A stretch of 63,697 nucleotides of DNA, filler included, from Octopus bimaculoides (GCF_001194135.2; 6 parts of 6 records of this genome joined end to end with filler, not necessarily neighbours in it), one strand, 5' to 3'. Counted from the whole stretch's first letter, positions 910 through 62,436 are shown. Notes: a model not told the origin generated them from the sequence alone. Numbers and translations are program-made.

Positions 910-1619
910 NNNNNNNNNNNNNNNNNNNNNNNNNNNNNNNNNNNNNNNNNNNNNNNNNNNNNNNNNNNNNNNNNNNNNNNNNNNNNNNNNNNNNNNNNNN
1001 NNNNNNNNNNNNNNNNNNNNNNNNNNNNNNNNNNNNNNNNNNNNNNNNNNNNNNNNNNNNNNNNNNNNNNNNNNNNNNNNNNNNNNNNNNNNNNNNNNNN
1101 NNNNNNNNNNNNNNNNNNNNNNNNNNNNNNNNNNNNNNNNNNNNNNNNNNNNNNNNNNNNNNNNNNNNNNNNNNNNNNNNNNNNNNNNNNNNNNNNNNNN
1201 NNNNNNNNNNNNNNNNNNNNNNNNNNNNNNNNNNNNNNNNNNNNNNNNNNNNNNNNNNNNNNNNNNNNNNNNNNNNNNNNNNNNNNNNNNNNNNNNNNNN
1301 NNNNNNNNNNNNNNNNNNNNNNNNNNNNNNNNNNNNNNNNNNNNNNNNNNNNNNNNNNNNNNNNNNNNNNNNNNNNNNNNNNNNNNNNNNNNNNNNNNNN
1401 TATGAGAGGTATTGTTATCTAGAAGACCCAAAGAGTGGCAGGTAATACTAAGTAAGTGCTATGGACAGACCATAGTCAAACACTTGGTTCGATAGTGATA
1501 TGAGTGAGGAGTCTAATGTAGGTCTTGTATTAGCATGCATATATATATTAGACAAAACGAGATAACAAAGCCAACGCTGTGAGAAGTTTTCAGGACATTT
1601 ATAAGGAAAAATATATATA

Positions 1620-1667
1620 GTCTTACAGTTGTTTCTGAGATATTATGGATATCTCTTCATCAGAGAC
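1620..1667 (-). ncRNA. Minimal type I hammerhead ribozyme motif with intact core boxes
   Basis: Minus strand: GTCT-CTGATGA-A-GAGATAT-ccata-ATATCTC-A-GAAA-C-aact-GTA-AGAC. Helix I is 4 bp, helix II 7 bp, helix III 2 bp, with a GUA cleavage triplet. Extra As flank helix II. Activity is untested. Confidence 0.7.
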
Positions 1668-1787
1668 AATGTGATATGGTTACATTGAGGTAAATATAAG
1701 TGTTCGAAATAAGGAATTATTATTATTCTTTTCAATAATTCCTTATTTCGAACTGAAATGTTTACCTCTATTTAACCATCTCACATC

Positions 1788-1835
1788 GTTTCTGTTGAAG
1801 GGATATCTATGATATCCCAGAAACAGCTGTAAGAC
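1788..1835 (+). ncRNA. Hammerhead ribozyme-like motif, A6U core variant
   Basis: GTTT-CTGTTGA-A-GGGATATC-tat-GATATCCC-A-GAAA-C-AGCT-GTA-AGAC. Helix II is 8 bp and the helix III loop (AGCT) is palindromic. Confidence 0.6.
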
Positions 1836-1939
1836 TATATCGATATTTTTTTCCTTATAAATGTCCTGAAAACTCCTCACTGCCTTGGCTTTGTTATCTT
1901 ATTTTGTCTAATATATATATATATATATATATATACATT

Positions 1940-2295
1940 CTTTTATTATTTTACTTGTTTCAGTCATATTGACTGTGGCCATGCTGGAGCACTACATTGT
2001 AGTCGAAGAAATGAACCCCTGGACTTATTCTTTGTATGCCTGGTACTTATTCTATCAGTCTCTTTTGCCAAACCGTTAAGTTACGGGGATGTAAACACAC
2101 CAACATCGATTGACAAGTGATGGTGGAGGGACAAACAAACACAAACACACAAATACATACACACACACGCATATATATATATATACGACAGGCTTCTTTC
2201 AGTTTCCATCAATCATATCCCAAGGCTATAGCAGAAGACACTTTTCCCAGATGTCATGCAGTGGAACTGAACCTGGAACCACGTGGTTGGGAAGC
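1940..2295 (-). mobile_element. SINE family A copy
   Basis: Same body and head as 445-855. Confidence 0.85.
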
Positions 2296-2436
2296 CTGGA
2301 ACCATGTAGTGTATGTCACATAATAAACATGACTATATATTCTAAGTATTCCAAATGTAGCTTAATGTAATCCTTTTATTGTTCTTTGTACAGTCTAATG
2401 ATTTTCCATACAAGGTATTTAAAATGCAAAATTATA

Positions 2437-2566
2437 TATTTATATATGTTTTGTAATTTTAATTTTGTTAGTTAAATGAAACAATTGTAGGTGTTAATTA
2501 ATATATTTATATATGTTTTGTAATTTTAATTTTGTAAATTTAATTTTGTAGGTGTTAATTAATAAA
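2437..2566. repeat. Imperfect tandem duplication, about 65-bp unit
   Basis: atatatttatatatgttttgtaattttaattttgt...tgtaggtgttaattaata occurs twice in tandem. Confidence 0.7.
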
Positions 2567-2764
2567 TTGATTTGTATCTATTAGATCTCTCTGTTTTCTA
2601 ACTCAATAATAATATTCGATATTTTACAATATTGTATGTAATATATTCATTGAAGAAATATCTCTTCAAAATATAATATATTAAATCAGTGCATCTTGGA
2701 TAAAATATCCCTATAACAGGTTTAAATATCCTCATTGTGACTATATATATATATATATATATAT

Positions 2765-3180
2765 ATACTCTTTTACTTATTTCAGTCATTTGACTGTGGC
2801 CATGCTGGAGCACCGCCTTTAGTCGAGCAAATCGACCCCAGGACTTATTCTTTGTAAGCCTAGTACTTATTCTATCGTTATCTTTTGCTGAACCGCTAAG
2901 TTACGNNNNNNNNNNNNNNNNNNNNNNNNNNNNNNNNNNNNNNNNNNNNNNNNNNNNNNNNNNNNNNNNNNNNNNNNCAAACATAGACACACACATACAT
3001 ATATATACATATATACGACAGGCTTCTTTCAGTTTCCATCTACCAAATCCACTCACAAGGCTTTGGTTGGCTCAAGGTTATAGTAGAAGACACTTGCCCA
3101 AGGTCCCACGCAGTGGGAATGAACCCGGAACCATGTGGTTGGTAAGCAAGCTACTTACCACACAGCCACTCCTGCACCTA
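2765..3180 (-). mobile_element. SINE family A copy (interrupted by an N gap)
   Basis: cagtcatttgactgtggccatgctggagcaccgcc...cacagccactcctgc; retains many CpGs. Confidence 0.88.
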
Positions 3181-3199
3181 TATATATATATATATATAT

Positions 3200-59542: not shown

Positions 59543-59972
59543 CCACTCATGTGCCGAGGAAGATATAATGTCCTAAATAATCTACGATAACCTGCAATAC
59601 TATGTTTATAGTTAAAAAAGACTATTATACTTAATGTTTCTTTTAGAAAGAGCCTGTTGAAAACTCTTGTCATCAAAACTGGCGTGTTTCCGAGATATTG
59701 ACATTTTTTTCTTCGAGGAAGAAATTGGAGCCAAATAGCCCAGATTATTACATTAAACGACGATGTAGTTTCTAAATATAGTACTCCGATAAAAGATAAG
59801 AAATAAGAAATAAAACAAACAAAAGGGATGGTCATAGTTAAGAGAAACGTCTTTGATCATTAGCACGGTTAACCTGTGCTAACCAACGTTTAAAACGACC
59901 AGTAGTGTCAATATATATATGTGACTATTTTTATTATCATATTTAAAAAAAATTAAGTTTGTGAAGGCAGAA

Positions 59973-60017
<45 letters not shown>

Positions 60018-60046
60018 CATATATATACACACACACACACATACAC

Positions 60047-60146
60047 NNNNNNNNNNNNNNNNNNNNNNNNNNNNNNNNNNNNNNNNNNNNTTAATTAATT
60101 AANNNNNNNNNNNNNNNNNNNNNNNNNNNNNNNNNNNNNNNNNNNN
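60047..60146. other. Artificial assembly join (TTAATTAATTAA linker)
   Basis: 44 N + linker at 60091-60102 + 44 N. Confidence 0.95.
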
Positions 60147-60488
60147 ATAGAGATTGAGAGCAATGTGTATGTTGTTGTCACAGGTCATGTATGTGTGGTT
60201 GTTTGTGTTTTTACGTATCTATGTTATGAAAAATAGGTAAAGAATACTGAGATGAAAGTTTAATCTATGACGTTGTATGTATCACTTTCTCTCTCTCTCT
60301 CTCTCTCCCTCTTTAACTCTTACTCTCTATATTTTTTATGTTGAGCGCGTGTGTAAGAATGGCGTTCCAGGTAGAAGGGATGAATTCCATTGATGTAAAA
60401 ATTTTTACGAAAAAGTGGAAAATGTGGATTTCTATAAACATTCAAAAAGGCTTCACACAGACACACAACTTCAGATTTATATATTAAG

Positions 60489-60521
<33 letters not shown>

Positions 60522-61231
60522 TATATATAAATATATATACACACATATTTATAAAAACATACACACAAACACACACACATGAGTAAGTAACAATTGATGA
60601 ACAGGTGTCAATTCATTATGGCCATTTCTAACAATCAAGTTGGAACAATGGAAAGGGAGATAACAGTTGAATGAAATAGTAACAGAATCATCGAAAATGT
60701 TTTGCTACGTGGATTTTAAAATATGTTAAATCATTTGGAATGTCCTTGATTGTAAAGTTCATGCACTTATCTGAGAAAAACTGTTTCTGTAAAATGATGT
60801 AATGTACTCATTAATCGATTAAAGGAGCTATGAGAAATGGCCATAATGAACTGAAAACTGTCCTTCAATTGTTACTTATCTATATTCTATTCACCTATCT
60901 TGGAATAAGCCCTTCACAAATTCTGAAGTATATTATGGACAGTATATTTAATAAAATGAATAGCTCAAGAGCAGATTGCATGCTAAACTGGGTCAAATTG
61001 TCGACATGCACTACAGGAATATCATTCTGCCAATACTTCTGTACCAAAGCTGATACTCGCATAATATTGTTGTGTGTATAATATTCCAACTTAACAAGGT
61101 GCCTCAACTTAAGTACCTAATTAGTATGAATTTTACTTATACACACATATATACACAAACACAAATATATTTATGTAAACATATATATACACATATATAA
61201 ATATATATACATACACATATATACACACATA

Positions 61232-61607
61232 TGTTGTTGTTGGCAATCCATCGAGGGTTCCAGTTGATCCGATCAACGGAACAGCCTGCTTGTGAAATTA
61301 ACGTGTAAGTGGCTGAGCACTCCACAGACACGTATACCCTTAACGTAGTTCTCGGGGATATTCAGCGTGACACAGTGTGACATGGCTGACCCTTTGAATT
61401 ACAGGCACAACAGAAACAGGAAGTAAGAGTGAGAGAAAGTTGTGGTGGAAGAGTACAACAGGGTTCGCCACCATCCCCTGCTGGAGCCTCGTGGACCTTT
61501 AGGTGTTTTCGCTCAATAAACACTCACAACGCCCGGTCTGGGAATCGAAACCGCGATCCTATGACCGCAAGTCCGCTGCACTAACCACTGAGCCATTGCG
61601 CCTCCAC
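61232..61607 (-). mobile_element. SINE family D copy
   Basis: Colinear with 51903-52300. Confidence 0.88.
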
Positions 61608-61679
61608 GCACACATATATACATACATATAAATATACTTATATAAACATATATATACACACACACACATATAAATTGTT

Positions 61680-62436
61680 GTATTTAGGGACGGTCATGTT
61701 GCCAGTTTAGTCAATGAAAACACATGCACTAAATATTTGGTGTTCACTTGCTTCAGCTTTATTTTATATTAATTGTATTTTGGCCAGAGTTCTTTCATCC
61801 CACTTCTGTGACCTCATCAGTGGTCCTTTGCATTTTTCTTTCTTTTTTGTATCTCTCCTCACTAACAATTAGCCATTTTCTATTCCTGTTGTATGTGACT
61901 TTATTTGCACATGTGTATACCATTGTGTGTGTCTATGTTTAGTGTGTGTGGGAATGTGTATCGTACATGCATTATCAATATCACGTGTTTATTCATGTTC
62001 GTTTAATTTACTTGTATTTATTTTATTCATTTCTTATTATCTACTTGTTCATTTCTTTTTCTTTTTGTATTAATTTACTTTAATTTAATTTATTTTATTT
62101 TGTTTCTATATATCATTTAATTCCATTTATCCATGTATAGTATTATATTCACATTATTATCAGTTTATGGGGATCTTATTCTGACATAGGTTGTCTCTGT
62201 GTGGAAGGGTGCTAGTGTTCCATTCTAATTTTCTATTTAGGCTAGGTTTAACTTCTATTACATGTGTAGCTTCCACAATTTGTCCAAGCGTTGCATGAGT
62301 TCTATGTGTGTACAAAAATTTCTGTTGTTGAGTGAGCACCCGTGTTCCCGTACGCCTAGTGGGAACACGGGGCCACCAGATATATAGTGCGTGTGTTTTC
62401 ATTAGCTAAAGTGGCAATATGTCCATACCCAAATAC
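61680..62436 (-). mobile_element. 5'-truncated Penelope-like element: GIY-YIG C-terminus, AT-rich 3' region, hammerhead, inverted 5' copy of the 3' end
   Basis: TGTRVLTQQQKFL...IVEATHVIEVKPSLNRKLEW matches the PLE GIY-YIG tail pattern (TGH..KIL..EA..I...KPSLN). 61680-61742 and 62374-62436 are 63-bp inverted repeats with 11 mismatches. Confidence 0.75.
61782..61826 (-). ncRNA. Hammerhead ribozyme motif in the PLE 3' region
   Basis: GGACCA-CTGATGA-GGTCACAGAAGTGGGAT-GAAA-G-aa-CTC-TGGCC. Core boxes are intact, the cleavage triplet is CUC, and helix II is imperfect. Confidence 0.65.

What the first reader, a model, noticed from the sequence alone, without database searches (positions are those of the whole stretch)
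1541..62436. Five outward-facing inverted insertions carrying minimal hammerhead cores: a Penelope-type mobilome
Seen: the long inverted repeats at 1541-1920, 7164-7937, 10150-10698, 45135-45510 and 61680-62436 all have the two 3' ends pointing away from the centre. In the first four, both arms carry a CTGANGA / helix II / GAAAC / GTH core or a relic of it; in the fifth the core lies just inside one arm. Several have a tiny palindromic helix III (AGCT, ACGT, ACATGT). Apart from the two related arms at 45135-45510, the arm sequences differ between sites, so at least five families are involved. Established: PLEs carry minimal type I hammerheads with short palindromic helix III, which can cleave as dimers, and often insert with an inverted terminal copy at the 5' side. 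Inference: these fold-backs are PLE-type retrotransposition products rather than DNA-transposon MITEs, and four of the five have no recognisable coding sequence.
Basis: partly seen in the sequence, partly recalled or inferred. Interest (0 to 1): 0.75.

Follow-up and report, generated by a model that had tools for sequence, protein, structure and literature searches.

The report
Penelope retrotransposon fold-backs, one tRNA-headed
Four of the five mirror-image repeats are back-to-back stumps of protein-coding Penelope-type jumping genes, a layout already known in animals, and the fifth is likely two separate insertions; the unusual part is one family whose end repeat starts with a tRNA-like stretch that likely acts as an RNA polymerase III promoter.

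Summary
Mostly confirmed, mostly known. In this likely octopus genome, sites 1, 2, 3 and 5 are 5'-inverted insertions of Penelope-like elements (PLEs). Site 4 is not a fold-back: it holds two related families, likely inserted separately. There are six families; each consensus has a type I hammerhead fold (one with a family-wide A6U core change). Five link to GIY-YIG and/or RT reading frames, so these are truncated coding elements (Poseidon-, Neptune- and Hydra-like), not MITEs. Second copies sit 5' and inverted. The optional PLE tail is on exactly one end in 36 of 37 site-2-family fold-backs and on both ends in 0 of 64 across four families. Inverted pLTR, tail, TSD and opposed hammerheads are in print. 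Not found in my searches: the site-2 family's pLTR opens with a tRNA-Ser-like A/B-box head between the ORF stop and the next ATG; 27 of 55 head-bearing arms start there, and its ORF consensus has no TTTT (P about 0.04). Pol III transcription and ribozyme cleavage are untested. This scan noted the tRNA-headed family earlier in other genomes and similar fold-backs elsewhere in this one.

The parts
1401..1723 (-). Family S1 (Hydra-like PLE) 3' end, left arm, with the 144-nt family tail at 1544-1401 (abuts an N gap)
   Evidence: (90% and 94% to consensus parts)
1620..1667 (-). Type I hammerhead motif, core intact; helix III palindrome AGCT changed to AACT
1728..1912 (+). Family S1 inverted arm without tail; hammerhead at 1788-1835 with a private A6U change; ends in (TA)n
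7150..7163 (+). Left copy of a 14-bp target-site duplication
7164..7315 (-). Family S2 (Poseidon-type) pLTR body without tail: first codons of the ORF with the hammerhead (7218-7264; core broken at A9 and G12 in this copy)
7331..7757 (+). Unrelated repeat ending in (GAT)n, inserted into the (AAT)n run of the S2 pLTR (SINE-like by recall, not tested)
7763..7837 (-). tRNA-Ser-like head of the S2 pLTR with A box and B box (likely Pol III promoter, inferred)
7835..7942 (+). S2 inverted, 5'-truncated arm (3' half of the hammerhead) carrying the tail
7938..7951 (+). Right copy of the 14-bp TSD; its first 5 nt also match the end of the tail
10192..10420 (-). Family S3 (Hydra clade) inverted arm; hammerhead at about 10199-10278 with C3 changed
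10426..10701 (+). Family S3 main arm; hammerhead at 10584-10663 with intact core and long helix II; no tail on either end
45135..45315 (-). Family S4L 3' end; minimal hammerhead at about 45233-45267, core broken at G8 and G12 in this copy; ends in (TA)n
45332..45503 (+). Family S4R (Neptune-like GIY-YIG upstream in longer copies) 3' end; minimal hammerhead at 45385-45420 with the family-wide A6U core; separated from S4L by a (TG)n run
61668..62348 (-). Family S5 main copy: last 41 codons of the GIY-YIG ORF (62321-62199), 3' UTR, hammerhead at 61782-61826 (helix II damaged), no tail
62374..62496 (+). Family S5 inverted arm with the 52-nt tail; a 13-nt inverted copy of the main 5' end lies at the junction

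Best explanation
Sites 1, 2, 3 and 5 are single, 5'-truncated insertions of hammerhead-bearing Penelope-like retrotransposons with an inverted copy of their 3' end, likely made when the element's GIY-YIG/RT protein cuts both target strands and primes one cDNA from each. Each cDNA likely starts at a different one of two fixed sites on the same RNA, one tail-length apart. The two grow inward and join at their truncated ends, which gives outward-facing arms, a tail on one side only and a short TSD. Shown here: the anatomy, the family links to ORFs, the one-sided tail, the TSDs and the excess of variants shared by both arms. From print: two-strand cleavage and two RT start sites in vitro (PMC11167929). 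Inferred: that one insertion uses both sites on one RNA. Site 4 is likely two separate PLE insertions into one microsatellite. The site-2 family is an autonomous Poseidon-type PLE whose pLTR opens with a tRNA-Ser-derived head; that head likely drives Pol III transcription of both the ORF in partial tandems and short SINE-like units (inferred, about 50%).
For: Second copies within 1.5 kb lie 5' and inverted in 5/30 (S1), 15/30 (S2), 7/29 (S3), 7/29 (S5), 1/30 (S4R) and 1/30 (S4L) loci, window copies included, with one extra direct fragment. In a position-ordered S2 sample it is 21-22 of 29. Tail on exactly one end: S2 36 of 37 (18 main, 18 inverted); S1 5/5, S5 7/7, S3 5/7; ORF-linked S2 6/8; on both ends 0 of 64. 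TSD of 9 nt or more in 23 of 37 S2 loci against 2.7% of 300 mismatched pairs, most often 12-13 nt. The arms of one S2 insertion share 10 non-CpG variants against 2.4 +/- 1.4 expected (36 pairs). ORF links: S5 RT plus GIY-YIG in a partial tandem (L224); S3 and S1 Hydra-type EN; S4R Neptune-like EN; S2 ~785-codon frame with RVT_1 E=1.8e-10, and a full inverted-pLTR plus partial tandem at L288. For Pol III: A and B boxes 45 nt apart and similarity to a tRNA-Ser(GCT) gene, z=5.2; 27 of 55 head-bearing arms start at -3..+8 of the head; 0 TTTT in the 2355-nt ORF consensus against 2.7 under synonymous shuffles, P=0.038.
Against: No cleavage, promoter or transposition assay was run. The window's site-3 copy has no tail on either end. 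14 of 37 S2 loci show no TSD of 9 nt or more. Shared arm variants could come from later gene conversion, and for S5 the non-CpG excess is not significant (8 vs 4.0, P=0.056). S4L has no ORF link, and the S1 link rests on two loci. The TTTT deficit is modest and comes from a consensus of only 5 long copies. The head gives no Rfam tRNA hit in the two copies tried, and only one tRNA gene was on hand for comparison. 13 of 55 arms scored upstream of -3 (4 at -47 or beyond, 9 at -6 to -14, several of these junction noise) and 15 start inside the head. BLAST-ranked loci are biased toward the query (40 scored of 687-3279 candidates).
Confidence: 0.88

Rival explanations
1. The inverted arm arises by snap-back: one cDNA folds on its own 3' end (or an antisense RNA self-primes, as proposed in PMC3846280) and is copied back, with no second target-primed event.
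For: The S2 head begins with a short palindrome and many junctions centre on it. Site 5 has a 13-nt inverted duplication at the junction. Arms share variants. Palindromes at inverted junctions are reported in Adineta (PMC3846280, passages).
Against: Copy-back must stop precisely at the second fixed end to give 36 of 36 one-sided tails. The arm that holds the intact head start does not consistently carry the tail (inspection). PMC11167929 (passages) shows both target strands cut and extended.
Confidence: 0.25
2. The tRNA-like head of S2 is a captured SINE or tRNA relic in the 3' UTR; copies start there because its structure stalls RT or favours joining, and the element is read by Pol II from flanking or pLTR promoters.
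For: pLTR 5' palindromes and Pol II-type promoter motifs are described for other PLEs (PMC3846280). The TTTT deficit is only P=0.02-0.04. A protein has to be made, and Pol III RNAs are uncapped (own knowledge).
Against: A and B boxes match the consensus at tRNA spacing while the rest has drifted from tRNA-Ser. The whole ~2.8-kb unit consensus has no sense TTTT, whereas the 3' consensuses of the five other families have 1-14 runs in their last 600 nt.
Confidence: 0.45
3. The arms are terminal inverted repeats of MITEs or DNA transposons.
For: Inverted repeats bound the inserts.
Against: Arm lengths vary, most copies of five families have no second arm, the ends are asymmetric, and RT/GIY-YIG frames lie upstream.
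Confidence: 0.01
4. The fold-backs are assembly or library chimeras.
For: Gapped, repeat-rich assembly.
Against: Arms differ by 7-21%, carry TSDs and follow the one-sided tail rule. RNA reads of a related organism show opposite-strand joints at the S2 head in three runs of one study.
Confidence: 0.02
5. Site 4 is one insertion event in which RT used two different family RNAs (S4L and S4R), one on each target strand.
For: Head-to-head, 17 nt apart, and the families are related.
Against: No other S4L/S4R head-to-head pair in 87 further S4 loci, although L136 has a 72%-identical S4L-like inverted neighbour; two S4L/S4R neighbours lie 3' in direct orientation. A (TG)n run separates the arms. S4L copies look older than S4R (about 80% vs 90% hit identities).
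Confidence: 0.15

Closest known systems
EN+ PLE insertions with inverted pLTR, tail and TSD (Adineta Pen2a_Av, PMC3846280; general scheme in PMC8557442)
   Same: Inverted 5'-truncated copy at the 5' end, optional tail on one end, 8-10-bp TSD there and 12-13 bp here, pLTR holding the first codons, palindrome at the pLTR 5' end (passages read).
   Different: Tails here run from 32 to 144 nt (print: 30-40). The one-sidedness is counted here (0 of 64 on both ends). The S2 pLTR has a tRNA-like head rather than TATA/Inr motifs.
Minimal hammerheads of metazoan PLEs (PMC4209133)
   Same: Type I fold, extra nucleotide before helix II, 4-5-bp helix I, palindromic or absent loop 3; dual motifs 100-700 bp apart on opposite strands are already noted (parts 1-2 of 4 read).
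   Different: S3 has a 56-nt helix II arm, S5 has G15.2-C16.2 with a CUC site, and S4R has A6U in 96 of 100 listed copies. Core variants were surveyed by Lunse et al. 2017 (not held; recalled).
Poseidon PAc of Anolis carolinensis (PMC11167929)
   Same: ORF begins within the pLTR and overlaps the hammerhead; two RT start sites define the tail; both strands are cut and extended (passages). The S2 ORF matches an Anolis RT protein at 37% (whether it is PAc was not checked).
   Different: No tRNA-like head was seen in the passages read. In vitro no strand difference in start site was seen, whereas genomic fold-backs here pair one long with one short start.
Hydra clade PLEs (PMC8557442, section 11 read)
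   Same: S3 EN has the CxCx5C linker, CxxC before E and CxH after N, lacks CCHH, carries a hammerhead and ends at (TA)n.
   Different: The S3 and S1 RT domains were not recovered, so RWK/DKT motifs are untested.
Schistosome Sm-alpha/Sj-alpha SINE-like hammerhead repeats (as reviewed in PMC6765202, passages)
   Same: Pol III-type promoter followed by a hammerhead in a short repeat.
   Different: Those are described as non-coding and often tandem. S2 is the terminal repeat of a coding PLE, with PLE tail and inversion.
Non-LTR retrozymes (bioRxiv 10.64898/2026.07.22.740005, part 1 of 5 read)
   Same: Type I hammerhead in short PLE-related repeats.
   Different: Retrozymes are tandem and non-coding; these copies are inverted or single ends of coding elements.

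Membership tests
EN+ Penelope-like elements | ORF with PLE-type RT and C-terminal GIY-YIG EN upstream of the 3' repeat | tested here: met
   RT and EN for S2 and S5 (Pfam hits below cut-off, motifs read by eye); EN only for S1, S3, S4R
EN+ Penelope-like elements | ORF link for family S4L | tested here: inconclusive
   No EN hit in 30 loci of +/-1.5 kb; related to S4R over 77 nt
EN+ Penelope-like elements | pLTR-ORF-pLTR partial tandems | tested here: met
   S2: L286, L288; S5: L224. Not shown for the other four families
EN+ Penelope-like elements | Inverted 5'-truncated copy at the 5' end | tested here: met
   rare in S4L and S4R
EN+ Penelope-like elements | Optional tail on one end | tested here: met
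   S1, S2, S3, S5; no tail defined for S4L or S4R
EN+ Penelope-like elements | Type I hammerhead motif in the pLTR | tested here: met
   Consensus folds with different, pairing helices I-III in six families; S4R core carries A6U
Hammerhead ribozyme | Self-cleavage as monomer or dimer | not testable with these tools
   Needs an in vitro assay
Penelope/Poseidon clade (S2) | No Zn-finger linker between RT and EN; CCHH-type EN; ORF start in the pLTR | tested here: met
   Read by eye from the translation and the in-frame junction; no tree was built
Neptune/Nematis clades (S5, S4R) | CX2-5CxxC linker before GIY-YIG | tested here: inconclusive
   S5 has Cx4CxxC; the S4R linker was not recovered; Naiad EN is indistinguishable from Neptune EN (PMC8557442); no tree
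Hydra clade (S3, S1) | CxCx5C linker, no CCHH, CxxC and CxH motifs | tested here: met
   S3 all motifs; S1 partial, linker cut off
Hydra clade (S3, S1) | RWK and DKT motifs in RT | not tested
   RT region not fetched
MITE / TIR DNA transposon | Fixed-length TIRs on all copies, short fixed TSD | tested here: not met
tRNA-derived SINE (S2) | Non-autonomous, no own ORF | tested here: not met
   Head follows the ORF stop and the body runs in frame into the ORF
tRNA-derived SINE (S2) | tRNA-related head with A and B boxes | tested here: met
   (z=5.2 to tRNA-Ser); Rfam blank
tRNA-derived SINE (S2) | Transcription by Pol III | not testable with these tools
   Only unstranded RNA-seq of a related organism was available
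Non-LTR retrozyme | Tandem non-coding units each with a hammerhead | tested here: not met
   Second copies are inverted; 2 of 29 S4R loci have a direct neighbour

The most novel reading that the evidence does not exclude
The site-2 family is an autonomous, protein-coding Penelope retrotransposon transcribed by RNA polymerase III from a tRNA-Ser-derived promoter in its terminal repeat, so that one element makes both its mRNA and SINE-like copies of its own tip; and every PLE fold-back is written by two RT subunits starting at two different fixed sites of one RNA, which is why the tail never occurs on both ends.
Probability: 0.4. Interest if true: 0.75.

Novelty: new variant of a known kind. Interest (0 to 1): 0.48.

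Why it matters
The fold-backs themselves are ordinary PLE insertions. Two points go further. First, a tail on both ends in 0 of 64 insertions, with arms sharing variants, constrains the open question of how PLEs form inverted ends and can be tested in the existing in vitro system. Second, a coding retrotransposon run from a tRNA-type promoter would blur the line between SINE and autonomous element and raise the question of how an uncapped RNA is translated. In practice, thousands of these copies could be misannotated as MITEs, SINEs or miRNA hairpins.

Tried and rejected
Rfam scan of the window: no hammerhead among 150 of 157 rows shown; no tRNA hit for two heads. Pfam gave no PLE-domain hit on the short EN fragments or the L224 frames. 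My first reading of S2 as a separate PLE-mobilised SINE was rejected once ORF-linked copies were found, after the lead in e1-8669850. The apparent G12A consensus of S2 was query bias: G12 is present in 29 of 32 inverted arms, and 979 exact matches to the intact 46-nt motif exist. Sequencing-run search: no RNA holder on record listed. Three raw RNA runs of a related organism (one study) gave equal depth on both strands and no start pile-up in the head, so they say nothing on promoter or cleavage. No link between the junction centre and the tailed arm. Paper searches: SINE+tRNA-derived+Penelope+hammerhead (2 listed); SINE+Penelope-like+octopus+tRNA+non-autonomous (2); SINE+Penelope+hammerhead+polymerase III (1); octopus SINE names (0); Penelope+SINE+mobilized by+pLTR+tRNA (14); Penelope-like+pol III+pLTR+tRNA-like+B box (30 of 38 listed); hammerhead+A6U+Penelope (0); Penelope+octopus+Poseidon+pLTR+promoter (4). 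By listing, none describes a tRNA-headed pLTR. No supplements were read, and Repbase/Dfam entries could not be searched; the files of PMC8557442 may hold these octopus families. Rows dropped as duplicates of one locus: L063, L168, L234, L315; L236 (weak inverted hit) was left out of the shared-variant test.

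
Full report
Setting. The window is a pack of six stretches. Sites 1-3 lie on G000:C18, site 4 on C2 and site 5 on C63049. The nearest protein to the site-5 ORF is labelled Octopus vulgaris, 82% identical, so the genome is likely an octopus (inference).

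Observation. Inverted arms are real at sites 1, 2, 3 and 5 (79-93% identity) but not at site 4. Mapping family consensuses back shows all five sites head-to-head and corrects the bounds: site 1 is 1401-1912 and site 5 is 61668-62496. A relaxed hammerhead descriptor hits four places, all in these sites, against 0.2 per control. Rfam shows none among 150 of 157 rows. Several window copies have broken cores.

Families. Each arm type is abundant: 687-3279 first-look candidates per query, of which 40 were scored and 30 fetched. Copies have fixed 3' ends and ragged 5' ends. Every second copy within 1.5 kb lies 5' and inverted, apart from one extra direct fragment: S1 5/30, S2 15/30, S3 7/29, S5 7/29, S4R 1/30, S4L 1/30. 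All four close pairs among the first 100 of 979 exact S2 motif matches face outward. In 29 position-ordered S2 loci, 21-22 have an inverted body.

Hammerheads. Consensus folds differ in sequence but keep pairing. S1 has a 7-bp helix II and the AGCT palindrome. S2, S4L and S4R have a two-pair helix III without loop. S5 has G15.2-C16.2 and a CUC site. S4R has U at position 6 in 96 of the first 100 of 1418 matches, C in 3 and A in 1; whether it cleaves is unknown. Cleavage was not tested for any family. PMC4209133 (parts 1-2 of 4) reports low activity for such motifs and already notes opposed pairs 100-700 bp apart.

Coding links. S5 copies run upstream into RT and a GIY-YIG with a Cx4CxxC linker, with a partial tandem at L224; the window copy keeps the last 41 codons. 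S3 has the Hydra-clade EN motifs given in PMC8557442. S1 links to a related EN at two loci. S4R links to a Neptune-like EN. S4L has no link in 30 loci.

Tail and TSD. In S2 the 32-nt tail is on exactly one end in 36 of 37 fold-backs (18 and 18) and on neither in one weak case. S1 (144 nt) gives 5 of 5, S5 (52 nt) 7 of 7 and S3 (59 nt) 5 of 7, the window copy having none. ORF-linked S2 loci give 6 of 8. None of 64 has the tail on both ends. TSDs of 9 nt or more flank 23 of 37 S2 fold-backs against 2.7% of controls; the window copy has 14 bp. The other families mostly end in (TA)n or other microsatellites, where TSDs cannot be read. Arms of one S2 insertion share 21 variants against 7.6 expected, and 10 against 2.4 without CpG sites; S1 and S3 agree on only 5 pairs each, and S5 is weak.

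Mechanism. PMC11167929 (passages) shows a PLE protein cutting and extending both target strands and starting RT at two sites that bound the tail. I infer that a fold-back is one event in which the two nicks prime two cDNAs from the two sites of one RNA, which then join at their truncated ends. Snap-back synthesis, in the spirit of PMC3846280 (passages), remains a rival. Site 4 is best read as two insertions in one microsatellite: no other S4L/S4R head-to-head pair occurs in 87 further loci.

The site-2 family. I first took it for a SINE: tRNA-like head, (AAT)n, hammerhead, tail, about 310 nt. L024 and L255 have RT and GIY-YIG frames directly upstream of the head. A consensus of five long copies gives one frame of about 785 codons (RVT_1 E=1.8e-10; 43 homologs, one from Anolis at 37%). 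The ATG, hammerhead and tail read in frame into it, and L288 shows inverted pLTR, truncated ORF, head, pLTR, full ORF, head, pLTR. So S2 is the pLTR of an autonomous Poseidon-type PLE. The head has A and B boxes at tRNA spacing and resembles tRNA-Ser(GCT) (z=5.2, one comparator). Of 55 arms that carry the head, 27 start at -3..+8, 15 inside it and 13 score further upstream, only 4 of them at -47 or beyond. The sense strand has no TTTT in the ORF (P=0.038 against synonymous shuffles, 0.018 against base shuffles), while S3 and S5 frames show no deficit. This points to Pol III but does not show it; the RNA reads at hand were uninformative.

Comparison and verdict. The inverted pLTR, one-sided tail, TSD and opposed minimal hammerheads are described in PMC3846280, PMC8557442 and PMC4209133, so the finding as framed is known biology in new families. 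A tRNA-headed pLTR was not found in eight searches; Repbase, Dfam and supplements were not seen. This scan has noted that family in other genomes and similar fold-backs in this genome; those notes are leads, not support. Verdict: real, PLE-derived, largely known, with one new variant and one testable mechanistic rule; interest 0.48.

Noticed in passing
window 6402-6587 (-): A further decayed fragment of an S3-like (Hydra-type) GIY-YIG ORF end, 73% to the consensus, without a recognisable hammerhead.
   Followed up: partly
window 37594-37650 (+): CUGAUGA followed by a GACCG/CGGTC stem that encloses two GAAAC words: an oddly wired hammerhead-like motif, possibly of the kind in note e1-8806550.
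   Followed up: no
window 36415-36452 (+): CUGACGA half core with a short hairpin, cut off by an N gap.
   Followed up: no
window 26610-26660 (-): CUGAUGA overlapping a long GACGTCAC/GTGACGTC hairpin.
   Followed up: no
window 20779-21564 (+), 4293-4667 (+), 47284-47739 (-): Stop-free frames that look like LINE fragments by eye; no Pfam hit at E 0.01.
   Followed up: partly
window 45034-45106: Short AT-rich inverted repeat just left of site 4.
   Followed up: no
L182 (G000:C2:82258400-82264900): An S4R-type copy with the A6U core is nested in the microsatellite-like part of an S1 3' UTR.
   Followed up: partly
window 1620-1667 (-): The site-1 left hammerhead has both partners of one helix II pair changed (G-C to A-U); single changes at either side occur in other copies.
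   Followed up: no
L073:2010-2378 (-): GIY-YIG fragment of yet another Neptune-like PLE family beside an S3 copy.
   Followed up: no
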